From sequence record PZ445489.1: a DNA stretch of 64,000 bases, one strand, 5' to 3'. The number at the start of each line of letters is the position of its first letter. Position 1 is the stretch's first letter. This stretch comes from a phage. The notes beneath the pieces are model-generated. The model saw nothing but the letters and a program-made list of their open reading frames with translations. It was not told the DNA's origin and searched no databases. The translations under genes and the position numbers were made by a program. This document shows, in pieces, positions 1 through 51,926 of this stretch.

Positions 1-573
1 ACTTTCGTTGATAGATGTAAATAAGAACTTGATTTGACCCTGAGTTACTTTAACATTAGATTCTAGTATTAAGTGCATTCGGATACCTGGTTTTAGCCCA
101 GCCGAAGATGACGCATGAGCGATAAACCCTGCATCAAGAGGAAACATATCCTCACTAATACTATTTAACATCCTAATAATATGTCGAGCCATGCCAACAA
201 GATCAAACTTGTTACAACCTCCTGTATCTACAATACCATCCACATCCATTGCGATTATATGACTTGGATTAGATACATTAAAGTTGCCCTTCTTACGTCG
301 CACATTATTTTTAGGTGCAAGACATCGACCTCGTACCGCAACGATATGAGGGTCAGACGTTAAACGTCTCATAAGAGGAAGCATTTCTACTAGGGTTTGA
401 GGATCAACTTCATCAATTACATCAAACTTGAAGGGCATTGAAGCTGGTTTACCTTCAGGATGCTTTGAGGAAAATCTTTTAGCAAAAAGATAATCTTCTG
501 CTTTAACTTCTCGCCAATTGCCTGTGGCTAAATCGCGATGAAATCCTGCATGACCTTGTAGGATTGAAAACAC
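1..573 (-). CDS. hypothetical protein, 3' end truncated by window edge
   Basis: Open minus-strand frame running off position 1; GTG at 571-573 with AGGAG 7 nt upstream; absent from ORF track because incomplete. Confidence 0.45.
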   Translation of the reverse strand, partial: MFSILQGHAGFHRDLATGNWREVKAEDYLFAKRFSSKHPEGKPASMPFKFDVIDEVDPQTLVEMLPLMRRLTSDPHIVAVRGRCLAPKNNVRRKKGNFNVSNPSHIIAMDVDGIVDTGGCNKFDLVGMARHIIRMLNSISEDMFPLDAGFIAHASSSAGLKPGIRMHLILESNVKVTQGQIKFLFTSINES

Positions 574-1059
574 AACAATACTCCTGTATTGGAAATGAAA
601 TAAGTTTTCTTTAGGACTATTCAGAAAGAATAGAACAACTGTTACTGTCAATTTCTCAACAAATTAATCGCAAATACTGAAGGGGGGTGGCAACTTCCCC
701 TTTCACGCTACACTGCCGCTTCACTATACCGCACAAATCCTTGAGGATGGCCGCTAAGCCAGATTTGCTCACCTAATGCTTCATGTACTAGCTCATACTA
801 GATGTAGTATACCTTACGTCATCACTTCTCAGAGTTTTTCACTCTTCCCGTCTCACTTCACAACCACCTCACACTAGGTTGCTTCGAGGCCTTACCAGGG
901 TTCCTACGGGATGTAGATCGCTAAGTATTCTATTAACTATTTGTTTAAAAACTAACACGTAACAGTTAAAACAACCCTTAATGGGGCAGCCTAACTGTTC
1001 CGTATCGCGGATTGTAAACAAGAAAAATTAGCAAAATCAATTTTTACTAATGTCTCTCA

Positions 1060-1112
1060 ATTCAATATAAATATTATATCAAGATTTTGGGCATCATGCA
1101 AGTAAAATTTTC
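1060..1112 (-). promoter_or_regulatory. T5-type sigma70 promoter, minus strand
   Basis: On minus strand: TTGCAT (1096-1101), 17-nt spacer, TATAAT (1073-1078), conserved leader. Confidence 0.5.
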
Positions 1113-1139
1113 CGGATGGTGCTATCATTGGTCTTGAGT

Positions 1140-1172
1140 ACGGATAAAACCGAGCCAAAATGACTCGGTTAT
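1140..1172 (-). terminator. hairpin terminator downstream of 1178..1375
   Basis: Minus-strand hairpin aaccgagtcattttggctcggtt followed by T-rich run. Confidence 0.4.
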
Positions 1173-1177
1173 GTGGA

Positions 1178-1375
1178 TTAGACACTTAAAATACTTCTAA
1201 TCTCTTCTATATACTTATCTACTTTTTTAGCATCTACTTTATTTAGTTTTCCTATATCAAAACTAGGATCAGTAAACATTCTAGCTATCTCTATCTCTAG
1301 AGACTTACTAATTTTCCCTGTAGTATTCCACTTAGAAATCTTACCTTTTATTTTCCAAAATTCCTTATTCATCAT
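1178..1375 (-). CDS. hypothetical protein (65 aa)
   Basis: ORF; start overlaps stop of upstream gene (translational coupling). Confidence 0.4.
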   Translation of the reverse strand: MMNKEFWKIKGKISKWNTTGKISKSLEIEIARMFTDPSFDIGKLNKVDAKKVDKYIEEIRSILSV

Positions 1376-1757
1376 TTAATCCCGGAACATATATCCCAAC
1401 ACGGTTTAATTGTTCTTTAGCTTCTTTGAGAATATCTGGAGTGTACTCCCAAATATCATCTTCCACCTGTAAAAGATGGGGCGAACAACCATCATCAGGC
1501 ACACGACATATGGCAAAACCACGTGGATGGAACAAAGAGAAATTTAGTGCAACAATTAAACCCATAGCAGACAATTCATTCCAATCCAATTCCCATTCCC
1601 CAGCGTAGCCTGATAGGCAAACACCAATACAGGGATCGTCTATTTGCTGCTCCGGAAAAGTGAAGGAGACTTGTCTTACTCCCAACCAACGTTGTAGCAG
1701 CTTCTCCGCACGTTTCACCAAACTAGGGTCAATCTGACGCCAATATACTTGTTCCAT
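1365..1757 (-). CDS. hypothetical protein (130 aa), paralog of 1767..2195
   Basis: Shares motifs with neighbour: SF.F....ID.PCIG, W.EL..MGL..ALN..LF.P, G..IPGL. Confidence 0.55.
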   Translation of the reverse strand: MEQVYWRQIDPSLVKRAEKLLQRWLGVRQVSFTFPEQQIDDPCIGVCLSGYAGEWELDWNELSAMGLIVALNFSLFHPRGFAICRVPDDGCSPHLLQVEDDIWEYTPDILKEAKEQLNRVGIYVPGLNDE

Positions 1758-1766
1758 TCTGCCTCC

Positions 1767-2195
1767 TTAAGCAGTTAAACCTGGGATCATATACCCGAAA
1801 CGTCGAAGTTTCTGAATCCCCTCATTTACTTCTTCCGGTGAGTAAGACCAACCATAACGTTCATTAACCTGAAAACCAGGAGATTCACTAGTTTTATAGT
1901 TAACAACGAGGCGATGCTTAGCAGGCATAAACAGCTTATAGTTTAACGCAAAAACTAAGCCCATTTCATCTAACTCTTTCCAGCCAACAATTTCTTCAAG
2001 ACCATCTTCTACCTGCACAATTAAACCAATACAGGGGGCCTCATCAATATCATCTTTAAAAGCAAAGGAGATTTCATTATTCTCACACCATATTTTCAGA
2101 GCATTAATAGCCTCATTGTACAGGTTGGCTGGAAGAGTATGCCAAAAATTAACCAATATTGGGTTAGCTTCTTTAGAGAATACATTATTGAACAT
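1767..2195 (-). CDS. hypothetical protein (142 aa), paralog of 1365..1757
   Basis: Tandem duplicate of downstream gene by shared motifs. Confidence 0.55.
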   Translation of the reverse strand: MFNNVFSKEANPILVNFWHTLPANLYNEAINALKIWCENNEISFAFKDDIDEAPCIGLIVQVEDGLEEIVGWKELDEMGLVFALNYKLFMPAKHRLVVNYKTSESPGFQVNERYGWSYSPEEVNEGIQKLRRFGYMIPGLTA

Positions 2196-2197
2196 AT

Positions 2198-2704
2198 TTA
2201 CACCTTAAATTGTTGTAAGGATTTACACATTTCAAGATCTGGGCTAAATTCTAGCATATAGCTAACAGCTTTTAAATCTTGAAGATTTATTCCAGTTCTA
2301 CCATTGACTATAACTGTTGGATACTGATACATCATAGCACCAGCGTCATCCAGTACACACCAATGTTTGAGCTTATGCTTTTCAACGAAGCGAAGAACAG
2401 AATTACCCCTAGATAGCCCACCACCAGTAAAATCCGTTGTACCAAGAAAACGATCGATAAGACCTAATCCGGTCATAATCTGAACGTTCTCCATCTCATT
2501 CCTGACAGAGAACCATGAGGATACTCCAACAATCATTATCGGAGAAGGACGAATAAAGTCCTGAAAAGCCTTGAGAAGCGGTTTGAAAACCCAGTCACTT
2601 CCAAAGAAAATCTTTTCATCATCAGGTGCATGATGGTGGGAGATGCTCGAATTGAGCACCCCATCAATGTCTAGAAAAATAATTGGAGTATTACTTATTT
2701 CCAT
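2198..2704 (-). CDS. HAD-superfamily phosphatase-like protein
   Basis: N-terminal IIFLDIDGVLN resembles HAD motif I (DxDGT/V). Confidence 0.5.
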   Translation of the reverse strand: MEISNTPIIFLDIDGVLNSSISHHHAPDDEKIFFGSDWVFKPLLKAFQDFIRPSPIMIVGVSSWFSVRNEMENVQIMTGLGLIDRFLGTTDFTGGGLSRGNSVLRFVEKHKLKHWCVLDDAGAMMYQYPTVIVNGRTGINLQDLKAVSYMLEFSPDLEMCKSLQQFKV

Positions 2705-2873
2705 TTTTGTTCCTTTCTAAGAACGTATCATACTCAACCGTATTCACATATATAACACCATAGTCATCGGATTTATAGTCCATTTCCCACAACTCACAGC
2801 GATAGTACCAACTACCGTCCGCCCATACAAATATATCATCAGGGTGTGTATACACAGATTTAATTATGGACAT
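2691..2873 (-). CDS. hypothetical protein (60 aa)
   Basis: ORF with start/stop overlaps to neighbours in operon. Confidence 0.35.
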   Translation of the reverse strand: MSIIKSVYTHPDDIFVWADGSWYYRCELWEMDYKSDDYGVIYVNTVEYDTFLERNKNGNK

Positions 2874-3688
2874 ATTTGTTTCCCTGGCATATAAGGTCTA
2901 CCCTCTAGATGAGCTTCTACACGAGCAATAAAATCAGGGTCACTAAAAGCATCTACCGCACCTTTACTCCAGTAAGGAATACCACGATCTTCCAACTGGT
3001 ACATCTCACTACGAGTCATACCTTGATAGCCCGGTTCTGCCGCTAGGGCACTATCGTAGTAGTTAACTACCATTAATTTGGCAGCAGTCAAATTAAGAAC
3101 AGGAAATAATTCCCAGTAGAAGTTAATTACTTGGTTAGAACAACCAACCACAATGATCATATCTTGACTGGTAATATCATCAAAAACATTGTACATTTCT
3201 GTATATGCTGGAGCATGCTCACCAAAGAAGATTACATTAGGTTTAACCCATTTATAATCATCTGGGTCAATAGAGCTATACCCAACATCAATAATTCGTT
3301 TATTACTACTATTGTAGCTGTCAGCTACAACAACCTCTTTTAAATATCCGTGAATGTGCAGAATGTCACTATGTGGAACGCCAGCACGTTCAATAAGGTC
3401 ATCAACATTGGTAGTCAAGTTTACTACTTGACCTGGATATTGTTTATACCATTCACCAATACGCAAATGTGCAAGATTGGGTTCAACAGTTTTTAGCTCT
3501 TCACGACGCTTGTTGTAAAACATATGGGTTTTATGATAAAAATTACCACGAAAGGCATGAATATTACATACTTCTTCTAGATTATAATCATCCCACAATG
3601 CTTTACCACTAGCAGTATCAGTACGAAAAGCTCGTACACCACTTTCAACACTCAAACCCGCACCGCTAATAATAATTAATCTACGCAT
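2864..3688 (-). CDS. Sir2-family (sirtuin-like) NAD-dependent protein
   Basis: Motifs SGAGLSVESGVRAFR, TTNVDDLIERAG, ILHIHG, IVVGCS match sirtuin signatures. Confidence 0.7.
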   Translation of the reverse strand: MRRLIIISGAGLSVESGVRAFRTDTASGKALWDDYNLEEVCNIHAFRGNFYHKTHMFYNKRREELKTVEPNLAHLRIGEWYKQYPGQVVNLTTNVDDLIERAGVPHSDILHIHGYLKEVVVADSYNSSNKRIIDVGYSSIDPDDYKWVKPNVIFFGEHAPAYTEMYNVFDDITSQDMIIVVGCSNQVINFYWELFPVLNLTAAKLMVVNYYDSALAAEPGYQGMTRSEMYQLEDRGIPYWSKGAVDAFSDPDFIARVEAHLEGRPYMPGKQICP

Positions 3689-3902
3689 TTTTCACCTGTT
3701 CTCTGAAGTTTTGCCCAATACTGTCTAATAGCTCAGCTAATTCTTTATTGCCTTTCTCCATTAAGGTGTTAGCAATAACTTCTAGCATAGTAGCGCAGGA
3801 TTCAACCCCATCCTTATAGCCAGTTTCCCAGTGCTGCATTAATGCGTTTTCCAAAGCGGCGTTTAAACCCTTATCTGGTAGCATCGGCTTCGAGAATGCC
3901 AT
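3681..3902 (-). CDS. hypothetical protein (73 aa)
   Basis: ORF, overlapping start/stop in operon. Confidence 0.4.
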   Translation of the reverse strand: MAFSKPMLPDKGLNAALENALMQHWETGYKDGVESCATMLEVIANTLMEKGNKELAELLDSIGQNFREQVKNA

Positions 3903-4074
3903 AAAGTTTCTCCTCTAGTTCCATAACACGATTTTCATAAGAGGCACGCAACTTTTCAATTGCCAGTGCACGCACTGTAACCTCATTAGAATTAATAGCT
4001 AACTGGGCCAGATCTTCTGTTTCCATACGTCCGTTGTAAATTAAGCGATATTTAAGATGTTTTACGTTTTTCAT
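3871..4074 (-). CDS. hypothetical protein (67 aa)
   Basis: ORF in operon. Confidence 0.4.
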   Translation of the reverse strand: MKNVKHLKYRLIYNGRMETEDLAQLAINSNEVTVRALAIEKLRASYENRVMELEEKLYGILEADATR

Positions 4075-4083
4075 TCTTGTTCC

Positions 4084-4365
4084 TTAGTTCTGTACTGTAA
4101 ATTCATTCTTATCACAGTGAGCATAATAATACCCATACATACGATAAATTTTCACAGCCTTAGTAGACCCCTTCGATTCTTCATAATCAATCCAGAGCCA
4201 CTTGTCTTTACCTACATAATGTACCCGAAACTTCTTAGCTTTCTTATCATTCCATGTTGCAACAACACGACGATAATCAAATCCGCCCAACCAATCTAGA
4301 GCCTTACGTTCTTCACTAGGCTCTCCAAGATGGGAGACATCTACTTTAGGAAGCAATTCGCTCAT
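4084..4365 (-). CDS. hypothetical protein (93 aa)
   Basis: ORF immediately downstream of nrdD; no radical-SAM CxxxCxxC motif. Confidence 0.45.
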   Translation of the reverse strand: MSELLPKVDVSHLGEPSEERKALDWLGGFDYRRVVATWNDKKAKKFRVHYVGKDKWLWIDYEESKGSTKAVKIYRMYGYYYAHCDKNEFTVQN

Positions 4366-4399
4366 AGCTTTCTCCTCTCAAATTTATAAATCTATTATA

Positions 4400-4450
4400 T
4401 ATAAATTTTTGGCTGAAAGCAAATAAAATAAAAGCCAGGTCGACTAGCAA
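4400..4450 (-). terminator. candidate hairpin after nrdD
   Basis: Imperfect hairpin agccgggttgc..ctggct followed by T-rich run on minus strand. Confidence 0.35.
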
Positions 4451-4464
4451 CCCGGCTGATTAGC

Positions 4465-6339
4465 TTACTTAGCTCGAATATCCTGATGCTTCACTCTACC
4501 CATCACCTCGTGCTGTTTGCCAGGGTTAAATGGACGAGCACCCGGATTTCCAAGATACCCACAAACTCGACGAGTTACTTCAAGAGTTTCGGGGTCATGA
4601 TTACCACAGATAGGACACTTAAACCCATCTTCGGATGCTATTGTTTCACCTAAGAATCCGCATTTACCGCAAGAATCCACTGGAGTATTAATACCGAAGT
4701 AATGAACTTTACTAGCAGCATAATTAATAACCCATTCCAGTGCATCTGGGAATCGTTTCATATCCGGTAGTTCTACATAGGAAATGCACCCACCAGAAGC
4801 AATAGGCGTAAAGTTAGATTCATAATCAAATTTCACGTTAGGAGCAACTTTACGCTCTACATCAAGGTGGTGCGAGTTAGTGTAGTATCCTTTAGACAGA
4901 ATATCTTCATGCTCTGGGAAATATTCACGGTCTAAACGGCAAAACCTATCACATAGGGACTCTGACGGTGTAGCATACAGGCTATAACCTAACTTAGTCT
5001 CTTCCTTCTTCTGATCGACTCTATCTCGCATGTACTGCAATACACGCTGAACAAACTTGATGCAGGTCTCTGACATTGTGTCTACATCTTTGCCAAACAT
5101 GAACTGTAGCATTTCATGGCAACCAATATACCCTAGAGATACAGAAGCACGGTTATAGAAATGATCGAATACATATTCATCAGGCTCCAAGCGTAACCCA
5201 AAGGCTCCTGACATATAGAGGATGGGTGCAGCTTTAGCTTGGATGTATTTTAAGCGATCAACTCTCCACTCCAATGCTTTTAACGCTGTATCCACACGTA
5301 GCTCAAGCAAATCAAAGAATAGATCAATATTTCCTTCAGCTTCGATAGCAATTCTAGGCAAGTTTACAGAAACAACACCTAAGTTATTACGGCCAGCAGT
5401 TTCACCATCTTCTGCAGCAGCTAGGAATGAACGGCAGCCCATAGAAACTTTATAGTCTCCAGTAACTTCTACAACCTTGTCATAGCTGATATAATCTGGA
5501 TACATACGTTCAGCAGTACATTTCATAGCTAACTTCTTGATGTCATAATTAACATCTCCTGGTTTCATATTTACGCCATCGCGAAGTACAAATACCAGTT
5601 TCGGGAAGATAGCTGTACGTTTATTGATACCTAAACCATCCATGCGTACTTTCAGTATTGCTTTCTGTACTAGACGTGCTTCCCAGGAAGTTCCTAGACC
5701 AAAACCAAAGGTAATAAATGGACTCTGACCATTAGAGTTGAACATGGTATTGATTTCATATTCTAAACCCTGACAAGCGTCATAGACTTCTTTTTCAGTC
5801 ATCTCCGTAGCCATTACTGATGCTTTGGCTTCATCCTTAGTCCAACGTTTTGCAAACGCATGATTTTTGTCATAGGATTTACGAACATAAGGGGCTAATA
5901 CTTCATCAAGGCGATCTACAGAAGTACCACCGTACTGATGGGAGCTAACCTGAGTGATAATCTGAGCAGTAATAGCCGCCGCAGTAGTGATAGAGTTTGG
6001 AGTGCTAATTTCAGCATTACCAACCTTCATACCATTCTTCAACATATCTTCCAAAGCTACCAGACAACAGTTAGTCATGCCTAATGCAGCATAATCAGCA
6101 TCGTGGAAATGAATATCCCCAATCATATGAGCATTTCGAATCTGAATAGGCATTTCTTCTAGAATTAGATACTTACTCAATTCACCTGCAAGCATATCCC
6201 TTTGTGTAGGGAAACGTTCTGAGGGTTTATTGGCATTATTAAACAGCAGCTCTTCATCTGCTGACCCTTCGATAATCTCTTTGCAGTTTCTAATTAACGC
6301 CTGCATTTCTTTATACTTTAGTTCTTCATTACGATTCAT
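4465..6339 (-). CDS. nrdD: anaerobic ribonucleoside-triphosphate reductase (class III)
   Basis: 624 aa; C-terminal glycyl-radical motif RVCGYLG and Zn-ribbon CGKCG..CPICG. Confidence 0.9.
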   Translation of the reverse strand: MNRNEELKYKEMQALIRNCKEIIEGSADEELLFNNANKPSERFPTQRDMLAGELSKYLILEEMPIQIRNAHMIGDIHFHDADYAALGMTNCCLVALEDMLKNGMKVGNAEISTPNSITTAAAITAQIITQVSSHQYGGTSVDRLDEVLAPYVRKSYDKNHAFAKRWTKDEAKASVMATEMTEKEVYDACQGLEYEINTMFNSNGQSPFITFGFGLGTSWEARLVQKAILKVRMDGLGINKRTAIFPKLVFVLRDGVNMKPGDVNYDIKKLAMKCTAERMYPDYISYDKVVEVTGDYKVSMGCRSFLAAAEDGETAGRNNLGVVSVNLPRIAIEAEGNIDLFFDLLELRVDTALKALEWRVDRLKYIQAKAAPILYMSGAFGLRLEPDEYVFDHFYNRASVSLGYIGCHEMLQFMFGKDVDTMSETCIKFVQRVLQYMRDRVDQKKEETKLGYSLYATPSESLCDRFCRLDREYFPEHEDILSKGYYTNSHHLDVERKVAPNVKFDYESNFTPIASGGCISYVELPDMKRFPDALEWVINYAASKVHYFGINTPVDSCGKCGFLGETIASEDGFKCPICGNHDPETLEVTRRVCGYLGNPGARPFNPGKQHEVMGRVKHQDIRAK

Positions 6340-6426
6340 TATACTCTCCTTCTCTAACTAAGACTACTATTATAACTCATTCGAGGGCGGATGTCAACAA
6401 TATTTTACTATAAAGTTCTGTAACAT

Positions 6427-6480
6427 GATCTGAGTCAAAAAATTTTATTTGCCAATCTCTATTAAAAATTGTATAATCAC
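6427..6480 (+). promoter_or_regulatory. T5-type early promoter
   Basis: TTGCCA 6439-6444, 17-nt spacer, TATAAT 6462-6467. Confidence 0.6.
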
Positions 6481-6576
6481 GCACTCGTGCACGCGATATA
6501 AAATGATTATCTAGTATCACACATCTCACGTTAAAAGCAAGCAAATTTTTTATTTAAATGCAATATCATAGGCTTA

Positions 6577-6630
6577 TTTAAAATTGTAGTTGCTTTTTAC
6601 TGTATATATTGGTATAATATATTTGTAAGT
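6577..6630 (+). promoter_or_regulatory. T5-type early promoter
   Basis: TTGCTT 6589-6594, 17-nt spacer, TATAAT 6612-6617. Confidence 0.65.
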
Positions 6631-6691
6631 TGATAAACAAGATCTTTTTGTTGATCCTCTGTTAGCGAAGTACACTATAGGAGTGTTATTT

Positions 6692-7444
6692 ATGGGAAAA
6701 GCACGTCAAAAAAGAGAGAACCGCAATGGTTCAAGAAAGCGTGGCAACAAATATGAGAATAACGTAATTCAGGCTGATTTTTCTAATGATTACGCTAACC
6801 CAGTTGCTAAATCCCTAGTAGGTAAAAACCGCGAGCAAAAATCATATATCAATATGATCAAGAACAACACAGTGACTGTGGGTATCGGTGAGCCAGGTAC
6901 TGGTAAAACCTTTATTCCGTCCGTTCTTGCAGCTCAGGAACTAGTAGACATTCACTCAGATATTGAGCAAGTGATTCTCGTACGTCCTAATGAACCTCTA
7001 GGTAAGTCTCTTGGTATGCTTCCTGGTGATCTAGCGGAAAAGCTAGAGCCTTGGTTGGAGCCAATAGCTGATGGTATGAAATGGGCCATCGGCGATCATG
7101 CATATAAAGGATATGTCGAACGTCAGAAAATTAAATTTTTGGCTATCGAACATGCTCGTGGCAGAACTTTCAACAACTCCTATGTAATTGTCGACGAAGC
7201 TCAGAATATTTCCGTTGAGGCAATGATTTGTCTCCTAACTCGTGTAGGGCAAGACTGCCGTTTAATTATCTGCGGAGATATAGCTCAGAAAGACATTAAA
7301 GGTGACTCAGGTCTAGCACTCCTTCTGGAAGTCTATGAGAAATATGAAAATGCCCCATTCTCAATGATCGAATTGATTGATAACGTTCGTTCTGTTGAGT
7401 CTAAAGCATTCTATGACATTTTTAAAGACATGGGGAAGGTGTAA
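6692..7444 (+). CDS. phoH: PhoH-like ATPase
   Basis: Walker A GEPGTGKTF, Walker B VIVDEAQN; ATG 6692 after AGGAG (track start 6683 is GTG). Confidence 0.85.
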   Translation: MGKARQKRENRNGSRKRGNKYENNVIQADFSNDYANPVAKSLVGKNREQKSYINMIKNNTVTVGIGEPGTGKTFIPSVLAAQELVDIHSDIEQVILVRPNEPLGKSLGMLPGDLAEKLEPWLEPIADGMKWAIGDHAYKGYVERQKIKFLAIEHARGRTFNNSYVIVDEAQNISVEAMICLLTRVGQDCRLIICGDIAQKDIKGDSGLALLLEVYEKYENAPFSMIELIDNVRSVESKAFYDIFKDMGKV

Positions 7445-7445
7445 T

Positions 7446-7667
7446 ATGGGAAACGTCGTTCATCTGAGCCGTAAAACTAAAATACATCGTACTTCACTGA
7501 GTGCTGCTAATATGATTACACGTAAGGAAGGGGAAGAAAGTCCTAAGACAACCCTAGCGTGGAAAATTGTAACCTCAAACCCAAATAAACCATTCAATTA
7601 TAACGAGCTGAGCACCTCCATAGATATTCTATTAAAAGAAGTAGCTAGAGCTAAAGTAATTGAATAA
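7446..7667 (+). CDS. hypothetical protein (73 aa)
   Basis: ATG overlaps phoH stop (TAATATG); track start 7377 lies inside phoH. Confidence 0.45.
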   Translation: MGNVVHLSRKTKIHRTSLSAANMITRKEGEESPKTTLAWKIVTSNPNKPFNYNELSTSIDILLKEVARAKVIE

Positions 7668-7729
7668 GCTAAAAAGCTAGACTGGTAATATACAGGCCTG
7701 GGTATGAAAATACTCGGGCCTTTTCTATC

Positions 7730-7783
7730 AGAAAATTTTATTTGCCTAATGACCAATAATAATGTAGAATATTCCTTAAATCC
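7730..7783 (+). promoter_or_regulatory. T5-type promoter upstream of nrdA
   Basis: TTGCCT 7742-7747, 17-nt spacer, TAGAAT 7765-7770. Confidence 0.55.
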
Positions 7784-7808
7784 TGATAACTATAAAAAGG
7801 AAAGCCAA

Positions 7809-10139
7809 ATGAGCCATCGCATTGAAAAAGTAATTAAACGTGACGGTACTGTAGAAGACTTTGCTCCTGAAAAACTCAATGGTTGGGCAGAGTATGGTTG
7901 CAAAACAGTTGATGTAAGTTGGTCAGCCATTACTATGGCTGCTCAAAAAACTCTACCTAAAGGGGTTGTAGATTCCGACACTCTGATGGACGCATTAATT
8001 AAAGCTGCTGAAAGTCTTATCAAAGATAATCCAGCATACGATGTGCCAGCAAAGGAATTACGTCTTGCGCAAATGCGTAAACGCCTTTATGATTCTTTCG
8101 AACCACCCTCTCTACGCTTCTTCCATGACCATATGGTTAGCGTAGGTGCATGGGAAGACATGAGTGCATGGATTACCGATGAGCAATTTGAAGCTCTGAA
8201 TCAGGTTATAGACCACGATCGTGACCGTCTTTTTACTAGTGGTGGACTGAAGCAGTTCTTTGATAAGTATTCCCGTCGTAACATAGCCACTGGTGAAATT
8301 TACGAAACCCCGCAGTTTGCCTACATGGGTATGGCAATGGCGATGTTATCTCAACCTAACTGGACAATTCTAGATGCAATCGACCTCTACAACGCAATGT
8401 CACTCCACAAAATCAACGTTCCTACGCCGCCACTGGTTGGTCTGCGCTCTAGTGACCGTGGATTTGCTAGTTGCTGCCTCGTGGATTCCACTGACACGTT
8501 GGATTCAATCGACACCGCCGAGCACATCGTCTTCAAAATGGTCGCAGCCAGAGCGGGAATCGGGTATCATCTTGAAAGCCGATCAATTGCTGATCCGGTG
8601 CGAAATGGGGCATTCCCACATTCCGGAAAACTGCCATATTATCGACACATTGACCGCTCAGTAAAGGCCAATACTCAGCAAACTCGTGGTGGTTCTGCCA
8701 CAGTGTCTTATCCATACTTCGACCCTGAAATCATTCAATTGATGCAGGTTAAGCAACAACGTGCTACAGATGAGAATAAAATCGATAAGATGGATTATTC
8801 TCTGAGCTTTAACAATCTTTTGTTAAAACGTTATCTTAAAAACGAGGATATTACGCTAATGTCATACTTCTATGCTCCAGAAGTTCATGAAGCGTTTTAT
8901 AGTGATGACGAGGCTAAATTTGAAGAAATCTACGTGGCAGCGGAGAAACGTGTGGCATCTCTTACAAAGATCGACCACGAAGGAAAAACAGTTCCTGCAG
9001 CTCCTAAAGTCTCTGCAAAAGAAATCCTAGATACTTGGCTACGTATCCGAATGGAAACAGGACGTATGTATGCTCATCACATCGGGGAATCTAATCGTCA
9101 CGGTAACTTCCTTGATCCAATCCGTATGACAAACCTTTGTGTTGAAATTACTCAGCCTACGCGCCCGTTCCATCATATCACAGAACTGTATAAGACAAAA
9201 GAGCAGCTTGATCAAATGAAGCCGGAGGATATTGGTGAAGTATCTCTGTGTAACTTAGGTGGTGTTGTACTGGGGCGCATGGAATCTCTGGCTGAGTGGG
9301 AAAAAACTTGCTACATCCTCCTGAAATTCGTTGATACAATTATTGAAATTCAGGATTATCCGTTCCCAACTATGGAATATACGGCTAAGAAACGTCGTAA
9401 TGTTGGTATTGGCCTAATGAACGCAGCAGGTGCAATGGCAGCAGAAGGTCTGGCTTATGAAGGTATTGAAGCCCGTAACTGGATTCACCGTGAGGCTGAA
9501 AAACTGTCCTACTTCCTGCATAAAGCCTCTGTACGCCTAGCTAAAGAACAGGGTGCATGTGAGTGGTTTGATCGTACTAAACCATCTAAAGGAATTCTGG
9601 TAATCGACACGTACAAGAAAACTGTTGATGAACTGGTATCCGTAGGTCTAGAAATGGATTGGGAGTCTCTGCGTGCAGATATTCTGAAATACGGTATGCG
9701 TAACTCTGTTCTGACTGCTCAGATGCCAGGAGAAAGTTCTTCTGTTCTGTTAGGTGTTACTAATTCTATTGAACCGCCTCGTAAGATTGTATCTATCAAG
9801 GGTAGTGCAGTGAATAAAGTAATTGCAATTGCTCCGGGTGCAACCGATTGGGAAACGTTAATGAGCTATAAACTGGCTTATGATGTAGATCGTATCGAGT
9901 GGATCAAATGGGTAGCAACTATGCAGAAATTCTTCAGTCAGTCTATCAGTACGAATATGTACTATGACTACACCAAGTTTGAGAATGAAATCATTCCTGG
10001 TCCAGTAGTAGTTCGTGATTTCATGACTGCTGTTAAGTATGGGTGGAAGACTTTCTACTACGCAAACTTCAACACCGCTAATGGTGGTGGTGCAGGGGAA
10101 GAATCCGCAGGCTGCGCTTCTGGTGGTTGTACCATCTAA
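7809..10139 (+). CDS. nrdA: ribonucleoside-diphosphate reductase alpha subunit (class Ia)
   Basis: ATP-cone HRIEKVIKRDGT, NLCVEI active-site region, C-terminal CASGGC; start chosen at ATG 7809 after promoter and RBS. Confidence 0.9.
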   Translation: MSHRIEKVIKRDGTVEDFAPEKLNGWAEYGCKTVDVSWSAITMAAQKTLPKGVVDSDTLMDALIKAAESLIKDNPAYDVPAKELRLAQMRKRLYDSFEPPSLRFFHDHMVSVGAWEDMSAWITDEQFEALNQVIDHDRDRLFTSGGLKQFFDKYSRRNIATGEIYETPQFAYMGMAMAMLSQPNWTILDAIDLYNAMSLHKINVPTPPLVGLRSSDRGFASCCLVDSTDTLDSIDTAEHIVFKMVAARAGIGYHLESRSIADPVRNGAFPHSGKLPYYRHIDRSVKANTQQTRGGSATVSYPYFDPEIIQLMQVKQQRATDENKIDKMDYSLSFNNLLLKRYLKNEDITLMSYFYAPEVHEAFYSDDEAKFEEIYVAAEKRVASLTKIDHEGKTVPAAPKVSAKEILDTWLRIRMETGRMYAHHIGESNRHGNFLDPIRMTNLCVEITQPTRPFHHITELYKTKEQLDQMKPEDIGEVSLCNLGGVVLGRMESLAEWEKTCYILLKFVDTIIEIQDYPFPTMEYTAKKRRNVGIGLMNAAGAMAAEGLAYEGIEARNWIHREAEKLSYFLHKASVRLAKEQGACEWFDRTKPSKGILVIDTYKKTVDELVSVGLEMDWESLRADILKYGMRNSVLTAQMPGESSSVLLGVTNSIEPPRKIVSIKGSAVNKVIAIAPGATDWETLMSYKLAYDVDRIEWIKWVATMQKFFSQSISTNMYYDYTKFENEIIPGPVVVRDFMTAVKYGWKTFYYANFNTANGGGAGEESAGCASGGCTI

Positions 10140-10198
10140 TATTAACAAGGGGACATACGTCCCCTTTATTAGACCTTCTATGGCTGTAATTTTAAATT

Positions 10199-10681
10199 AT
10201 GGAAGAAAAATACAAAGAAATAGTGGGGTTATTTGATTATAATCCAGAAACAGGGATATTTACCCATAAAGCTAGAGAAGATAAATCCTTCAATACTAGA
10301 TTTGCTGGCAAAGAAGCTGGTTCTCTAGAAAAATGCTCTGGATATATTGTAATGCAAGTAAAAGGCACTAAGTATTACGCGCATATCCTAGCATTCCTTA
10401 TCGTTAATGGGTATATTCCAAAGGAAGTAGATCACGATAATAGAATACGGCACGATAACCGAGCTATTAATTTAAAGGCCTCTGACAGACACAGTAATGG
10501 TAAAAATGTCGGGGCGCACAAAGATAATAAATTAGGTATTAAAAATATTCACCAAAAAGCGAGTGGATCTTACCAGGTACAGATAGCCCGTAAAGGTGTA
10601 AAATATACTAAAACATTCAAAGAACTTGAGGATGCTATAGAGTGGCGCGATATGAAACTATTGGAGCTTGATAGTTTATAA
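10199..10681 (+). CDS. HNH homing endonuclease
   Basis: HNH-like VDHDNRIRHDNRAINL plus C-terminal AP2-like DNA-binding region; sits between nrdA and nrdB. Confidence 0.7.
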   Translation: MEEKYKEIVGLFDYNPETGIFTHKAREDKSFNTRFAGKEAGSLEKCSGYIVMQVKGTKYYAHILAFLIVNGYIPKEVDHDNRIRHDNRAINLKASDRHSNGKNVGAHKDNKLGIKNIHQKASGSYQVQIARKGVKYTKTFKELEDAIEWRDMKLLELDSL

Positions 10682-10729
10682 TTTTACTTGCTAATCGCTA
10701 CCAGATTTGCTATAATATTCCTGAAATAG
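10676..10729 (+). promoter_or_regulatory. T5-type early promoter
   Basis: TTGCTA 10688-10693, 17-nt spacer, TATAAT 10711-10716. Confidence 0.6.
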
Positions 10730-10747
10730 TGAGAAAGAGGAAAATCA

Positions 10748-11893
10748 ATGACTACTTTACTAAACCTGAATTGGGATCATACTAATGCTGACCTTTTCCT
10801 GGGAGATTCTCTCGGTATCGCAGATTATGTACGTGTAGCACATCCAGAACTAGAACGTCTGGCACTTCTGCAACGCTCTCAATTTTGGACTGAAACTGAG
10901 ATCAGTCTGGAAGCAGATAAGAAACAATGGCCTAACCTCCCACGGGAAATTCAGGAAATTACACTCCTGAACTTAGCATGGCAGACTCAAACAGACTCCT
11001 TTATCAGTCGTGCTCCTGAAGCAGCTATTATGCCACTTGTAAGTCGTCCAGAATTGGAAGGTATGCTCAAACAGTGGAGCTATTTTGAAGACCTGCATAG
11101 TCGTGCTTATAGCAATATTATTCGTAATGTGCTGACTGACCCAGCAGAATTTATTGATTCTGTAACCAAAAACCAAGAAGCATTCGCACGCATCGCTGAT
11201 TCTGTTGAACTATTCGATGAACTGTACCTGTTAGGTCAGTATTTCATTGCAGTACGCGATCATCGTGGCGACAATACATACCCAGAAACTGAGTTCCCTG
11301 AAGTTAAACGTGAAACTCAGGCTAAACTATTAGACGCTTACTTTGCGATCTACGGTCTGGAAGCAATGCAGTTTTACGCATCCTTTGCATGTACCTTTGC
11401 ATTAGCAGAGAATGATATTCTGCAAGGTATTGCTAAAAATCTGCAATTAATCGCTAAAGATGAAGCTCTGCATACTCAGATGTCCAAAGCAATCATCCAG
11501 ATTATGTTTCAGCAATTTGACAAAGATCTGGTAGATGAAGCAGTGGCTAAAGCACCAGCACAGCTCCTGAAAACTCTGAAAACTGAAATTGAATGGGGTC
11601 ATTTCATTTTCAAAGGTCGTAGTCTGATTGGCTTGAACGCAGAACTTCTAGAAGAATATCTGTACTTTGTGGGGCGTAATGCATTTATGCACATTGGTGT
11701 AGAATGGCCTAGTCACTTACCAGTAATCACCAAAAACCCTATTCCGTGGATCATGAACTGGTTGGATACTACTTCTCTACAGCCTGCTCCACAAGAAATT
11801 CAGATTGGTGCAGCTTACCGTGTAGGTCAGGTAACTGAGACATCTACTGATACTCTGAAAGATCTGGGTAATGAATTTGGAGATTTCTTATGA
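10748..11893 (+). CDS. nrdB: ribonucleoside-diphosphate reductase beta subunit
   Basis: 381 aa; di-iron ligand motifs EDLHSRAY and EALHTQ. Confidence 0.9.
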   Translation: MTTLLNLNWDHTNADLFLGDSLGIADYVRVAHPELERLALLQRSQFWTETEISLEADKKQWPNLPREIQEITLLNLAWQTQTDSFISRAPEAAIMPLVSRPELEGMLKQWSYFEDLHSRAYSNIIRNVLTDPAEFIDSVTKNQEAFARIADSVELFDELYLLGQYFIAVRDHRGDNTYPETEFPEVKRETQAKLLDAYFAIYGLEAMQFYASFACTFALAENDILQGIAKNLQLIAKDEALHTQMSKAIIQIMFQQFDKDLVDEAVAKAPAQLLKTLKTEIEWGHFIFKGRSLIGLNAELLEEYLYFVGRNAFMHIGVEWPSHLPVITKNPIPWIMNWLDTTSLQPAPQEIQIGAAYRVGQVTETSTDTLKDLGNEFGDFL

Positions 11894-12423
11894 TTACAGC
11901 AATGTATGCAGTTGGGCCGAATGGGGAGTTCGGCCTCCGCGGTAAACTTCCATGGGGTTCCTTCAAAGAAGAACTAGATGCTTTCTATTCTCAACTGGAC
12001 GTGTTGAATCCAGATAACATCATCATTGGTGCGGGTACTTATTTAGCTCTTCCATACGCCGTTAGAGAACGTATGATTGGAGCTTCTGACCTATTTATTC
12101 GTGCTGATCGTCCACTGCCAGACGATATTACACATGATATTTACACTCCAATTTCTAAGATTGGGGATGCTTTACCTACATTTCTGAAAGATCAGCAGAC
12201 AGTAGTTCTAGGTGGGGCTAACCTTCTTCTAGAAATGTATATTCATGGACATATTGAAAGTGCTTTTGTATCCACAATCTTTAGTGATCAAAAACTAGAG
12301 GCAGATGTACATCTGGATAATACGATTCTAGATTACAACTACGAATCTACTCGTTTAGTTTACGCAACTGGCGCAAACAGTGATAACAGCCTGCGATTTG
12401 TACAGGAATTGGTTACTTATTAA
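11890..12423 (+). CDS. frd: dihydrofolate reductase
   Basis: 177 aa; N-terminal motif ending LPW; position between nrdB and thyA. Confidence 0.7.
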   Translation: MITAMYAVGPNGEFGLRGKLPWGSFKEELDAFYSQLDVLNPDNIIIGAGTYLALPYAVRERMIGASDLFIRADRPLPDDITHDIYTPISKIGDALPTFLKDQQTVVLGGANLLLEMYIHGHIESAFVSTIFSDQKLEADVHLDNTILDYNYESTRLVYATGANSDNSLRFVQELVTY

Positions 12424-13262
12424 TGCAACAATACTTAAAAATTTTGACAGATGTAACTTTACTAGGTGAACCCCGTAATGACCGTACAGGAACGGGCACA
12501 GTTTCAATTTTTGATTCCTATGCTAAGTTCGACCTACGTGAGGGATTCCCGGCTGTAACTACTAAACGCCTGGCCTGGAAATCAGTAGTAGGAGAACTCT
12601 TATGGTTCTTGTCTGGTTCCACAAATCTCCATGATCTACGTGTATTCACATTTGGTCGTGACGAAGGACAGTGGACCATCTGGACTCCAAATTATGAAGA
12701 CCAAGCTATAAGTATGGGGTATGATAAGGGTAATCTAGGACCAGTATATGGTAAACAGTGGCGCAACTTTGGTGGGCGAGATCAGATTCTAGAACTTATT
12801 GAAGGACTCAAGAATAATCCTCATGGCCGCAGACATCTAGTTTCTGCATGGAACGTAGCTGAACTTGATAAAATGGCATTACCACCCTGTCACTACGGCT
12901 TCCAGTGCTATGTAAGCAACGATGGATACCTAGATCTTAAATGGACACAACGTTCTGTAGACTGTTTTCTAGGCCTACCTTTCAATATTGCTAGTTATGC
13001 TTTATTAACACATATCCTGGCAAAACTGACCGGGTTAAAACCTCGCTACCTTATCTTTAGTGGCGGTGATACTCATATCTATAATGACCATATGGAACAG
13101 GTAGAAGAACAGGTAAAACGTAAACCTCGTTCTTTACCAACTCTAGTAATGCCAGAATTTGTAGATCTCTACGATTTACTGGAGAATAATACTGCAGCTT
13201 GGTCATTCCATTTAGAGGGGTACGATCCTCACCCAGCTCTTAAAGCTAAGATGTCTTCTTAA
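12423..13262 (+). CDS. thyA: thymidylate synthase
   Basis: Active-site LPPCHYGFQ and GGDTHIYNDH. Confidence 0.9.
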   Translation: MQQYLKILTDVTLLGEPRNDRTGTGTVSIFDSYAKFDLREGFPAVTTKRLAWKSVVGELLWFLSGSTNLHDLRVFTFGRDEGQWTIWTPNYEDQAISMGYDKGNLGPVYGKQWRNFGGRDQILELIEGLKNNPHGRRHLVSAWNVAELDKMALPPCHYGFQCYVSNDGYLDLKWTQRSVDCFLGLPFNIASYALLTHILAKLTGLKPRYLIFSGGDTHIYNDHMEQVEEQVKRKPRSLPTLVMPEFVDLYDLLENNTAAWSFHLEGYDPHPALKAKMSS

Positions 13263-13267
13263 CTCAA

Positions 13268-13295
13268 ATAGCCCTTTCGGGGGCTATTATATTTA
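13268..13295 (+). terminator. hairpin terminator after thyA
   Basis: tagccctttcgggggcta hairpin then AT-rich run. Confidence 0.45.
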
Positions 13296-13345
13296 AATTT
13301 CATTTGCTTATTTAGTGAAATTTAAATATAATATATTTTATAAAT
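13292..13345 (+). promoter_or_regulatory. T5-type early promoter
   Basis: TTGCTT 13304-13309, 17-nt spacer, TATAAT 13327-13332. Confidence 0.6.
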
Positions 13346-13357
13346 TGGAGGTATACA

Positions 13358-28764: not shown

Positions 28765-28803
28765 TGCTTAATTTCTTGTTATAATATTTATATAAATTGA
28801 TGC
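28743..28803 (+). promoter_or_regulatory. T5-type promoter (overlaps 3' end of CDS)
   Basis: TTGCTT 28757-28762, 17-nt spacer, TATAAT 28780-28785. Confidence 0.6.
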
Positions 28804-29124: not shown

Positions 29125-29511
29125 GTGTGTACAAAAACATGTAGAGCCTGTGGGAATGAATATCCGTTAACAACCGAATATTTTTATTCGAATGGATTTA
29201 CTCCTAATGGCACAAAGAAGTGGAAGCCAACATGTAAAGCATGTGAAAAAGCTGAACGAGTAGCTGGACATGAAGAATTAATTAAAGAAGTATTTCCTGT
29301 ATTAGAATGTAGTATTTGTGGATATAATAGGTGTAAACAAGCCCTAGATTTCCACCGTACTAATCCAGAAGAAAAGGAATACTCCATTGCAAGGTTTAGA
29401 ACTTCTCGTAGAAACAGAGAAGTAGTAATAGCAGAACTTAAAAAGTGCGTACTATTATGCTCTAACTGCCATAGAGAAGTACATGCTGGATTAATAAATT
29501 TGGGCGAATAG
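29125..29511 (+). CDS. HNH endonuclease
   Basis: C-terminal LLCSNCHREVHAG HNH motif plus CxxC pairs; GTG start; stop codon lies inside tRNA-Ala acceptor stem. Confidence 0.6.
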   Translation: MCTKTCRACGNEYPLTTEYFYSNGFTPNGTKKWKPTCKACEKAERVAGHEELIKEVFPVLECSICGYNRCKQALDFHRTNPEEKEYSIARFRTSRRNREVVIAELKKCVLLCSNCHREVHAGLINLGE

Positions 29512-32433: not shown

Positions 32434-32802
32434 ATGAAAGCATATCAAAATCTTAAGTCTGGCGTAATTAACCTTGTTCATGAAAATCAGATTATTCAGC
32501 TATACTCCGACAATGGTGAACTTAAACAGAAAGTTCTAGTTGAAGATCTAGAAGGTATCACACCACAATTCGATCCCGAAGCCTTCCGTGAAGTTAAGGT
32601 GGAAGTCGCCCCTCAAATCGAAGGTGGTCAGCACCTAAATGTCAATGTGTTAAGCCGTGATCAGCTTTTGGATGCGCAGAAACATCCTGAAAAATATCCT
32701 CAGTTGACCATCCGTGTCTCTGGCTACGCTGTTCGATTTAATGCACTGACTCGTGAACAACAGAACGACGTTATTAGTCGTACATTTACTCAGGCGATGT
32801 AA
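32434..32802 (+). CDS. grcA: autonomous glycyl-radical cofactor (GrcA/YfiD-like)
   Basis: C-terminal [34 protein letters not shown] closely matches the E. coli GrcA glycyl-radical region as I recall it. Confidence 0.8.
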
Positions 32803-32883: not shown

Positions 32884-33198
32884 GTGGATCGAGCATTAAG
32901 ACGCCATCACCGGCAACGTGTGAAGAACAACCGCAAGAAGTATTGGACAGTCTTCCCACATGAAGAAAGCCCTAAGCGGTTAGGTATTATCACTACTACT
33001 CCTTGCATCTGTTCTTGTTGGATGTGCGGGAACCCTCGCAAATATTATAAGAATAGTAAAGCAGGCATGAAAATTTCGGAGATTAGGAAAATGGAAGCAA
33101 TGATTATGGGCATCTCAAATGATGAATTTGATGGCTTTGTAGGATTCGGAGAAGGAATTAGCTCAGGCTGTTTCGAAGATGAACGCCCCGATCTGTAA
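32884..33198 (+). CDS. hypothetical Cys-containing basic protein (104 aa)
   Basis: ORF. Confidence 0.4.
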   Translation: MDRALRRHHRQRVKNNRKKYWTVFPHEESPKRLGIITTTPCICSCWMCGNPRKYYKNSKAGMKISEIRKMEAMIMGISNDEFDGFVGFGEGISSGCFEDERPDL

Positions 33199-50825: not shown

Positions 50826-50871
50826 AAAGCGCAGGGCAATTGCCCTGCTAGCCTGAATGCGAATGATAATA

Positions 50872-51000: not shown

Positions 51001-51023
51001 AGTGAGAAACACTGTTATTTAAG

Positions 51024-51925: not shown

Positions 51926-51926
51926 T

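What the first reader, a model, noticed from the sequence alone, without database searches (positions are those of the whole stretch)
4465..6339. nrdD and a GrcA-like gene present, but no NrdG activase nearby
Class III RNR needs a radical-SAM activase (NrdG), usually encoded next to nrdD. The ORF downstream of nrdD (4084-4365) lacks a CxxxCxxC motif and I see no such motif elsewhere in the window. The phage does carry a GrcA-like spare glycyl-radical domain at 32434-32802. It may rely on host NrdG, or encode the activase outside this window.
Basis: partly seen in the sequence, partly recalled or inferred. Interest (0 to 1): 0.4.

Follow-up and report, generated by a model that had tools for sequence, protein, structure and literature searches.

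The report
T5-like phage nrdD without activase
This T5-like phage carries an intact anaerobic ribonucleotide reductase gene and a GrcA-type spare glycyl-radical gene but no activating enzyme; this gene content is already recorded for T5-like phages and most likely means the phage uses the host's activases.

Summary
The window is a Tequintavirus (T5-like) genome segment. ORF 4465-6339(-) is a complete, ATP-cone-less class III RNR (NrdD). ORF 32434-32802(+) is a GrcA/YfiD-type stand-alone glycyl-radical protein.

A profile of nine diverse NrdG proteins found nothing in the six-frame translation of the window or of the whole genome of the closest relative, Salmonella phage oldekolle. The same kind of profile recovered held-out T4 NrdG and even E. 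coli PflA.

One detail was wrong. Three strict CxxxCxxC motifs do occur in the window: two in an HNH endonuclease and one in a small His/Cys-knuckle protein next to the grcA-like gene. None lies in a radical-SAM protein.

nrdD is a stand-alone transcription unit under strong purifying selection, keeps every catalytic residue, and has a host-like glycyl-radical loop.

Best explanation (inferred, not shown): the phage supplies only the oxygen-sacrificial radical-bearing proteins, and host NrdG and PflA activate them.

nrdD-only phages, T5 included, are already noted in the literature (Dwivedi 2013; RNRdb 2009), and T4 Y06I sets the precedent for the GrcA-like gene. The finding is ordinary and of low interest. 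The one open point is that host-NrdG dependence appears untested in the literature I could search.

The parts
4465..6339 (-). nrdD: class III (anaerobic) ribonucleoside-triphosphate reductase catalytic subunit, 624 aa, no ATP-cone; glycyl-radical motif RRVCGY with G594
   Evidence: Pfam NRDD 2.6e-172 and Gly_radical 9.4e-23. NF006732 844 bits (cut-off 657), matching model positions 87-706 of 712. PDB T4 NrdD 1h78 E=2.9e-177. Counterparts of T4 C79, C290, N311, C543/546/561/564 and G580 are all kept.
6369..6397 (-). Promoter-like site upstream of nrdD (TTGACA-17-TATAAT, 12 of 12)
   Evidence: Consensus scan; pattern match only. A divergent 11/12 site at 6449-6477(+) faces phoH-nrdA.
4433..4457 (-). 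Terminator-like hairpin (10 pairs, 6 G-C) plus T-run, starting 8 nt after the nrdD stop codon; it separates nrdD from the next ORF
   Evidence: pattern match only.
4084..4365 (-). 93-aa ORF in the position where nrdG usually sits; a small protein restricted to T5-like phages, not an activase and not a detectable NrdG remnant
   Evidence: No Pfam or NCBIfam hit. phrog_7953, unknown function. Only 10 clusters of homologues; where named or annotated they are in T5-like phages. The weak NrdG-like stretch 'GKDKWLWIDY' is not conserved in the family. hhalign against an NrdG alignment gives probability 0.25%.
32434..32802 (+). GrcA/YfiD/Y06I-type autonomous glycyl-radical protein, 122 aa, motif RVSGYAVRF
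   Evidence: Pfam Gly_radical 3.7e-18. TIGR04365 spare_glycyl 121 bits, below its cut-off of 170. 74% identical to E. coli GrcA over 74 aa. 49 of the last 62 residues are identical to the E. coli PflB C-terminus.
32884..33198 (+). 104-aa ORF carrying CICSCWMC (a CxxxCxxC match); examined and excluded as an activase
   Evidence: phrog_4499, unknown function; no Pfam hit. The family has 889 representatives; the best 150 listed are mostly 70-100 aa. Invariant residues are H8, C43, S44, C45 and C48, while the first Cys of the apparent CxxxCxxC (C41) is not conserved.
29125..29511 (+). HNH homing endonuclease carrying the other two CxxxCxxC matches; examined and excluded as an activase
   Evidence: phrog_2255 HNH endonuclease 4.6e-31. 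The stretch has no blastn match of more than 300 bases in oldekolle.
7704..10139 (+). nrdA (class Ia RNR large subunit); context, transcribed divergently from nrdD, downstream of phoH (6683-7444)
   Evidence: ORF list. oldekolle annotation of the matching region. PhoH Pfam 4.4e-61.

Best explanation
The phage encodes only the radical-bearing, oxygen-sacrificial components of two host glycyl-radical systems, and depends on host radical-SAM activases that are already in the cell.

- NrdD, made from its own promoter-terminator unit, would be activated by host NrdG, with host flavodoxin and SAM. As an ATP-cone-less enzyme it would then reduce NTPs without dATP shut-off during anaerobic infection.
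- The GrcA-like protein would be activated by host PflA, as shown for T4 Y06I. It would replace the C-terminal domain of O2-cleaved host PflB and so keep pyruvate formate-lyase running.
- Formate from that enzyme is the reductant of E. coli/T4-type class III RNR. The two genes would therefore form one anaerobic or microaerobic dNTP-supply module.

Shown here: gene identities, absence of any activase homologue, intactness of nrdD and selection on it. Inferred: the identity of the activator and the link through formate.
For: 1. No activase.
- tblastn with E. coli NrdG gives a best E of 0.53.
- An HMM of nine diverse NrdG proteins, run against all six-frame ORFs of at least 30 aa from the window and the whole oldekolle genome, gives a best E of 0.82.
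- In a control, an HMM built without them finds T4 NrdG at 2.9e-46, a Felix-O1-type NrdG at 1.9e-46 and E. coli PflA at 2.1e-11.
- phmmer with PflA gives a best E of 1.

2. nrdD looks functional.
- All key residues are kept.
- dN/dS is 0.007 for ESCO40 versus S124 (dS 0.20) and 0.034 for the window versus oldekolle.
- 406 phage records cover at least 80% of the nrdD-plus-ORF93 query.

3. Three nrdD alleles that are only about 60-71% identical at the protein level all have no nrdG next to nrdD: the window, S124/ESCO40 and the Klebsiella Sugarlandvirus GlastoCabaret. All keep the segment VTRRVCGYLG(S/N)PG(A/S)RPFNxGKQxEVxxRVKH. In the window this segment matches E. coli NrdD at 25 of 31 positions (hand count), against 53% identity overall. 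T4 NrdD, which has its own NrdG, matches at 18 of 31.

4. The GrcA-like C-terminus is 79% identical to that of host PflB. T4 Y06I is activated by host PFL-AE and rescues cleaved PFL (PMC8683613).

5. In Aeromonas phage AsFcp_4 the GrcA-like gene sits in the cluster nrdD-nrdG-vs.6-nrdC-nrdH, which links it to the class III system.

6. The literature records nrdD-only phages. Many phages carry only nrdD together with nrdAB, and T5, EPS7 and SPC35 are named for the matching gene layout (PMC3653736). RNRdb counts 30 phage NrdD against 21 NrdG (PMC2795772).
Against: - No experiment shows host NrdG acting on a T5-type NrdD.
- From my own recollection of Young et al. 1994 (JBC), which I did not retrieve, T4 NrdD needed T4 NrdG when expressed in E. 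coli. Cross-activation therefore cannot be taken for granted.
- The host-like glycyl-radical loop does not discriminate well. Vibrio phage Dax has an equally host-like loop and still encodes NrdG.
- T5-type phages shut off host gene expression early (known biology of T5). The scheme would therefore depend on NrdG and PflA protein already present before infection.
- The remainder of this particular genome was not seen; only that of a close relative was (about 86-98% identical by aligned block across the window, 99.7% at the nrdD locus).
Confidence: 0.7

Rival explanations
1. An nrdG gene lies elsewhere in this phage's genome, outside the 64-kb window.
For: Only about 57% of a roughly 109-kb genome is in the window. 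In Vibrio phage Dax nrdG is separated from nrdD by three genes. Members of the same family that infect Vibrio do carry nrdG.
Against: The complete genome of oldekolle (99.7% identical at the nrdD locus) has no annotated activase and no profile hit. The only CxxxCxxC-bearing ORFs of at least 50 aa in it are the homologue of the window's 104-aa ORF and a 74-aa stretch antisense to an annotated gene. The part outside the window is the conserved structural and replication module. Gene lists for T5-like genomes give nrdD without nrdG (PMC3326045).
Confidence: 0.03
2. The phage encodes a non-canonical activator, unrelated or unrecognisably related to radical-SAM enzymes, among its many hypothetical proteins. 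Candidates would be the 93-aa ORF after nrdD or the Cys-rich 104-aa ORF after the grcA-like gene.
For: Both ORFs sit directly downstream of a glycyl-radical gene. They gave two of the weak top-ranked hits to the NrdG profile (E=1.6, and E=0.82 for the oldekolle copy of the 104-aa ORF). Both are conserved phage families of unknown function.
Against: The scores are at noise level. hhalign gives a probability of 0.25% for ORF93, and its NrdG-like stretch is not conserved in its own family. A terminator-like hairpin separates it from nrdD. The ORF104 family keeps H/C/C/C, not the CxxxCxxC triad. Most listed members are 70-100 aa, which is smaller than the roughly 150-aa NrdG proteins aligned here. 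The family is spread far beyond genomes that have nrdD. No non-radical-SAM route to a glycyl radical is known (established knowledge).
Confidence: 0.04
3. Without its activase, nrdD is an inactive relic, or it serves a role that does not need the radical, such as nucleotide binding.
For: The cognate activase is missing. Class Ia RNR (nrdAB) is also encoded and could cover dNTP supply in air.
Against: dN/dS is 0.007-0.034. The radical glycine, both catalytic cysteines, Asn and the four Zn-site cysteines are all kept across alleles that are only about 60% identical. The gene is intact in hundreds of genomes. It has its own perfect-consensus promoter-like site.
Confidence: 0.08
4. The GrcA-like protein is a spare radical domain for the phage's own NrdD rather than for host PflB.
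For: It co-occurs with nrdD in T5-like and T4-like phages. It is adjacent to nrdD-nrdG in Aeromonas phage AsFcp_4. Reviewers have speculated that spare parts may exist for other glycyl-radical enzymes (PMC8683613).
Against: Its radical motif and flanks are of the PFL type (RVSGYAVRF; 49 of 62 identical to the PflB C-terminus), not the NrdD type (RRVCGYLG). The T4 homologue was shown to rescue PFL.
Confidence: 0.05

Closest known systems
Bacteriophage T4 NrdD/NrdG class III RNR (PDB 1h78 and related)
   Same: - ATP-cone-less NrdD of about 600 aa.
- 49% identical to the window protein.
- Same catalytic Cys/Asn residues, Zn ribbon and C-terminal glycyl-radical motif.
   Different: - T4 encodes its own NrdG just downstream, with the homing endonuclease gene mobC in between. 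The window phage and its relatives have none.
- The T4 radical loop has drifted from the host's (18 of 31 identical) whereas the T5-type loop stays host-like (25 of 31).
- T4 nrdD carries a group I intron; this one does not.
E. coli / Salmonella NrdD-NrdG (NCBIfam NF006732, PRK09263)
   Same: The window protein scores above the equivalog cut-off (844 against 657 bits), is 54% identical and has a nearly identical glycyl-radical segment.
   Different: It lacks the N-terminal ~86 residues (the ATP-cone), so it has no allosteric activity site. There is no adjacent nrdG. It is monocistronic with a phage-type consensus promoter-like site.
nrdD-only phages described by Dwivedi et al. 2013 (PMC3653736) and counted in RNRdb (PMC2795772)
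   Same: [quoted passage not shown]
   Different: Nothing substantive. The window is another member of that group.
E. coli GrcA (YfiD) and T4 Y06I (vs.6) autonomous glycyl-radical cofactors
   Same: A stand-alone protein of about 120-127 aa whose C-terminal ~70 residues copy the PflB radical domain. It is 74% identical to GrcA there. Many phage homologues are already annotated as GrcA.
   Different: The N-terminal ~50 residues are unrelated to E. coli GrcA, and the TIGR04365 score (121) is below the equivalog cut-off of 170. The function in T5-like phages is untested.
Vibrio-infecting Demerecviridae (Ermolyevavirinae, e.g. phage Dax, pVp-1, JSF10)
   Same: The same phage family. In Dax the RNR cluster lies next to the replication-origin-binding gene, as in the window's relatives; NrdD is 53% identical to the window protein.
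   Different: Their NrdD keeps the ATP-cone, and they encode NrdG (Fer4_12 4.4e-53). The order is nrdD-grx-nrdB-nrdA-nrdG.

Membership tests
Class III RNR catalytic subunit (NrdD) | NRDD catalytic domain scoring above curated thresholds | tested here: met
   Pfam PF13597 574.8 bits (cut-off 26.2). NF006732 844 bits (657) and TIGR02487 588 bits (326).
Class III RNR catalytic subunit (NrdD) | C-terminal glycyl-radical motif RVxGY with the radical glycine | tested here: met
   RRVCGYLG, with G594 aligned to T4 G580. Pfam Gly_radical 9.4e-23.
Class III RNR catalytic subunit (NrdD) | Catalytic Cys pair and Asn (T4 C79, C290, N311) and the four-Cys Zn site (T4 C543, C546, C561, C564). Residue numbers are from my knowledge of the T4 enzyme. 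| tested here: met
   Window residues C91, C302, N319, C557, C560, C575 and C578.
Class III RNR catalytic subunit (NrdD) | Cognate radical-SAM activase NrdG encoded in the same genome | tested here: not met
   No hit in the window or in the whole oldekolle genome, with working positive controls. This is a feature of the system rather than of the protein family.
Class III RNR catalytic subunit (NrdD) | NTP reduction dependent on a glycyl radical | not testable with these tools
   Needs anaerobic enzymology or EPR.
NrdG / glycyl-radical activating enzymes (radical SAM; Fer4_12, PF04055) | CxxxCxxC cluster motif inside a Fer4_12/Radical_SAM fold of at least about 150 aa, in any ORF of the window | tested here: not met
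   Three motif matches lie in an HNH endonuclease and in a 104-aa H/C/C/C-knuckle protein. Profile searches are negative.
Autonomous glycyl-radical cofactor (GrcA/YfiD/Y06I) | Small stand-alone protein consisting essentially of a PFL-type glycyl-radical domain (RVSGYAV motif) | tested here: met
   122 aa. Gly_radical matches residues 62-103. 74% identical to GrcA and 79% to the PflB C-terminus.
Autonomous glycyl-radical cofactor (GrcA/YfiD/Y06I) | Score above the NCBIfam equivalog cut-off (TIGR04365) | tested here: not met
   121 bits against a cut-off of 170. Only model positions 52-126 match and the N-terminal half differs.
Autonomous glycyl-radical cofactor (GrcA/YfiD/Y06I) | Activation by PflA and rescue of O2-cleaved PflB | not testable with these tools
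   Shown for E. coli YfiD and T4 Y06I only (PMC8683613).

The most novel reading that the evidence does not exclude
T5-like phages of enterobacteria would be obligate users of host glycyl-radical activases. In this reading they dispensed with nrdG, which Vibrio-infecting members of the family retain, and kept the NrdD radical loop matched to host NrdG. The phage would replace only the oxygen-destroyed subunits (NrdD, and the PflB radical domain via its GrcA-like protein) after host shut-off. Host nrdG and pflA would then be host-dependency factors specific to anaerobic infection, for example in the gut.
Probability: 0.6. Interest if true: 0.4.

Novelty: already known. Interest (0 to 1): 0.2.

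Why it matters
If host NrdG really activates the phage enzyme, anaerobic replication of T5-like phages would hinge on a host gene. These phages are widely proposed for Salmonella and E. coli biocontrol in the gut. That dependence is relevant to how well phages perform without oxygen and to possible resistance routes. It would also be a clean natural case of cross-species NrdG-NrdD compatibility. As a genomic observation it adds nothing new: nrdD-only phages and phage GrcA homologues are already documented.

Tried and rejected
1. ORF93 (4084-4365) as a decayed NrdG.
- It was the best tblastn hit (E=0.53, 'GKDKWLWIDY' against 'GKDIWVWTGY') and sits where nrdG normally is.
- Rejected: the stretch is not conserved in the 79-aa members of its own family, hhalign probability is 0.25%, and a terminator-like hairpin lies between it and nrdD.

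2. ORF104 (32884-33198) as a mini radical-SAM protein.
- It carries CICSCWMC.
- Rejected: the family-invariant residues are H8/C43/C45/C48, the first Cys is variable, most listed members are 70-100 aa, and there is no Pfam hit.

3. ORF 29125-29511, with two CxxxCxxC matches: it is an HNH endonuclease.

4. The extra gene overlapping the start of nrdD in S124 and ESCO40, checked as a possible activase: it has DUF4379, CapR and T5orf172/MUG113 domains, so it is a homing-endonuclease-like gene.

5. A PflA-type activase: phmmer was negative.

6. The search for homologous proteins with E. coli NrdG listed only close relatives (81% identity or more), which were too similar to give a diverse profile. 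I used phage NrdGs from tblastn hits instead, adding three of the close relatives only to the alignment used for the hhalign comparison.

7. Literature searches for experimental work on T5 NrdD activation found none.

8. I fetched only the first 50 kb of T5 itself and did not scan the rest. The whole-genome negative result rests on oldekolle.

Full report
**What the window is**

megablast of 3500-7500 finds 448 phage records, the best being Salmonella phage oldekolle at 99.7% (Demerecviridae, Markadamsvirinae, Tequintavirus). Window 1-50497 aligns to oldekolle 60512-109372 and window 50503-64000 to oldekolle 6-13703. The window therefore covers the early and tRNA half of a T5-like genome and runs across the record ends. 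The part it misses, oldekolle 13.7-60.5 kb, holds structural and replication genes.

**The observation**

- ORF 4465-6339(-), 624 aa, is a class III RNR catalytic subunit.
  - Pfam NRDD E=2.6e-172 and Gly_radical E=9.4e-23.
  - NCBIfam NF006732 scores 844 bits against a cut-off of 657, matching model positions 87-706 of 712. The ATP-cone is therefore absent.
  - The best solved relatives are 9d3x and T4 NrdD 1h78.
- Aligned with the T4, E. coli and Vibrio phage Dax enzymes (49%, 54% and 53% identity), it keeps the counterparts of T4 C79, C290, N311, the four Zn-site cysteines and G580.
- ORF 32434-32802(+), 122 aa, is a GrcA-type protein.
  - Pfam Gly_radical E=3.7e-18.
  - 74% identical to E. 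coli GrcA over the last 74 residues.
  - 49 of the last 62 residues are identical to the PflB C-terminus.
  - Its N-terminal half is unrelated, and the TIGR04365 score (121) is below the equivalog cut-off of 170.
- The 93-aa ORF after nrdD has no family hit beyond an uncharacterised PHROG.

**Is an activase really absent?**

- tblastn with E. coli NrdG against the window and the whole oldekolle genome gives nothing better than E=0.53.
- I built an HMM from nine NrdG proteins of 34-58% identity to E. coli NrdG, taken from phages of different families plus E. coli itself. Searched against every stop-to-stop ORF of at least 30 aa in both sequences, its best E is 0.82.
- As a control I rebuilt the HMM without the T4, Felix-O1-type, Krischvirus and Certrevirus sequences. 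It still found T4 NrdG at 2.9e-46, the Felix-O1-type NrdG at 1.9e-46 and E. coli PflA at 2.1e-11, while window and oldekolle stayed at 0.78 or worse.
- phmmer with PflA was also negative.
There are three such motifs in ORFs of at least 50 aa.
  - Two lie in ORF 29125-29511, an HNH endonuclease (phrog_2255, E=4.6e-31).
  - The third, CICSCWMC, lies in a 104-aa ORF (32884-33198) directly after the grcA-like gene.
  - That ORF belongs to a large family of small proteins: 889 representatives, the listed ones mostly 70-100 aa.
  - The family's invariant residues are H8, C43, S44, C45 and C48. The first Cys of the apparent radical-SAM triad is not conserved. I read this as a His/Cys metal knuckle, not a radical-SAM core.
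- In the whole oldekolle genome, the only other CxxxCxxC in an ORF of at least 50 aa is a 74-aa stretch antisense to an annotated gene.

**A lead that failed**

The best tblastn hit fell in the 93-aa ORF that occupies the usual nrdG position ('GKDKWLWIDY' against NrdG 'GKDIWVWTGY'). Four things argue against homology:
- The family is tiny, at 10 clusters.
- The 79-aa members have 'RKGFGHVTIDY' at that position instead.
- Profile-profile comparison with an NrdG alignment gives a probability of 0.25%.
- A 10-pair terminator-like hairpin lies between nrdD and this ORF.

I treat the resemblance as chance.

**Anatomy and selection**

- nrdD has a 12/12 consensus sigma-70 promoter-like site at 6397-6369(-) and the hairpin plus T-run at 4457-4433(-). 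It looks monocistronic, and it is divergent from phoH-nrdA-nrdB.
- The neighbourhood is conserved in Epseptimavirus S124, Tequintavirus ESCO40 and the Klebsiella Sugarlandvirus GlastoCabaret: origin-binding gene, Sir2, small ORFs and nrdD on one strand, then phoH and the class Ia RNR genes on the other. None has nrdG next to nrdD.
- Their NrdD alleles are only about 60-62% identical to the window protein, yet all keep the radical segment.
- dN/dS is 0.007 for ESCO40 versus S124 (dS 0.20) and 0.034 for the window versus oldekolle. The gene is under strong purifying selection in lineages that lack an activase.
- S124 and ESCO40 carry an extra gene overlapping the start of nrdD. It is a T5orf172/DUF4379 homing-endonuclease-like gene, not an activase.

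**Comparison within the family**

Vibrio-infecting Demerecviridae (Thalassavirus, pVp-1, JSF10, Ceto and others) do encode NrdG. In Dax the order is nrdD (with ATP-cone), glutaredoxin-like gene, nrdB, nrdA, nrdG. The absence of nrdG is therefore a trait of the enterobacterial branch, not of the family.

**Mechanism**

The most economical reading is that host NrdG activates phage NrdD and host PflA activates the GrcA-like protein.

In support:
- nrdD is functional by every sequence criterion, yet no activator is encoded.
- The 31-residue segment around the radical glycine is 25/31 identical to E. coli NrdD, against 53% overall. T4, which brings its own NrdG, has 18/31. These are hand counts from the alignments.
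- T4 Y06I is a proven precedent for a phage glycyl-radical protein activated by a host enzyme (PMC8683613).
- Activases are catalytic and reusable, whereas glycyl-radical proteins are irreversibly cleaved by O2. A phage that shuts off host synthesis gains most by supplying the consumable parts. This point is inference.

The GrcA-like protein would keep PFL making formate, which is the reductant of E. coli/T4-type class III RNR (RNRdb table, PMC2795772). The cluster nrdD-nrdG-vs.6-nrdC-nrdH in Aeromonas phage AsFcp_4 supports such a functional link.

Caveats:
- Dax also has a host-like loop and still keeps NrdG, so the loop argument is weak.
- From memory and not retrieved here, T4 NrdD required T4 NrdG in E. 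coli, so cross-activation is not guaranteed.
- Nothing here is experimental.

**What is already known**

- Dwivedi et al. [quoted passage not shown] They name T5, EPS7 and SPC35 for the phoH-containing layout.
- RNRdb listed 30 phage NrdD against 21 NrdG in 2009.
- Papers on T5-like genomes list nrdD without nrdG.
- GrcA-like genes occur in 1585 phage records. [quoted passage not shown] T5's copy is T5.056.
- I found no paper that tests which activase serves T5 NrdD.

**Verdict**

The pattern is documented and unsurprising, so interest is low. The one open question, whether host NrdG is required, is easily testable.

Noticed in passing
window 32884-33198 (+): A 104-aa ORF after the grcA-like gene belongs to a very large family of small proteins (889 representatives at 50% clustering, the listed ones mostly 70-100 aa). 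The signature is RRHHxxRxK ... TPxxCSCxMCGNPRK, with invariant H8, C43, S44, C45 and C48, and there is no Pfam model. One representative, P0137, is 3003 aa with seven matching stretches. In oldekolle only the last 35 codons are annotated; T5 annotates the full ORF as T5.055.
   Followed up: partly
window 29125-29511 (+): An HNH homing endonuclease ORF lies in the tRNA region. Window 28802-29549 has no blastn match of more than 300 bases in oldekolle, so this looks like a lineage-specific mobile insertion.
   Followed up: partly
L016 6009-6872 (-) and L017 6195-6866 (-): In Salmonella phage S124 and Escherichia phage ESCO40, a gene with DUF4379, CapR and T5orf172/MUG113 domains (GIY-YIG-like) overlaps the start of a divergent nrdD allele. 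That allele is about 60% identical at the protein level to the window's. ESCO40 is in the same genus as the window phage, which suggests exchange of nrdD alleles linked to a homing endonuclease.
   Followed up: partly
L020 1365-4953: Aeromonas phage AsFcp_4 has the cluster nrdD-nrdG-vs.6 (GrcA-like)-nrdC-nrdH. The GrcA-like gene overlaps nrdG by 4 nt, which links phage spare glycyl-radical proteins to the class III RNR module.
   Followed up: no
window 6369-6477: Back-to-back near-perfect sigma-70 promoter-like sites lie between nrdD and phoH: 12/12 on the minus strand at 6397-6369 and 11/12 on the plus strand at 6449-6477.
   Followed up: no
window 2198-2704 (-): A 168-aa ORF next to the Sir2-like gene matches Pfam HAD_SAK_2 (HAD domain of 'Swiss Army Knife' RNA repair proteins, E=4e-20). 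The RefSeq record of oldekolle labels it Sir2.
   Followed up: no
window 1365-1757 and 1767-2195 (-): Two adjacent ORFs of 130 and 142 aa look like tandem paralogues: they share CIG(V/L), MGL and ALN motifs and carry the same VOG3964 label in oldekolle. ESCO40 annotates both as 'exonuclease'.
   Followed up: no
window 50497-50503: The window runs straight from the right end to the left end of the oldekolle record. The source record is therefore permuted relative to oldekolle, or it spans the terminal-repeat junction.
   Followed up: no
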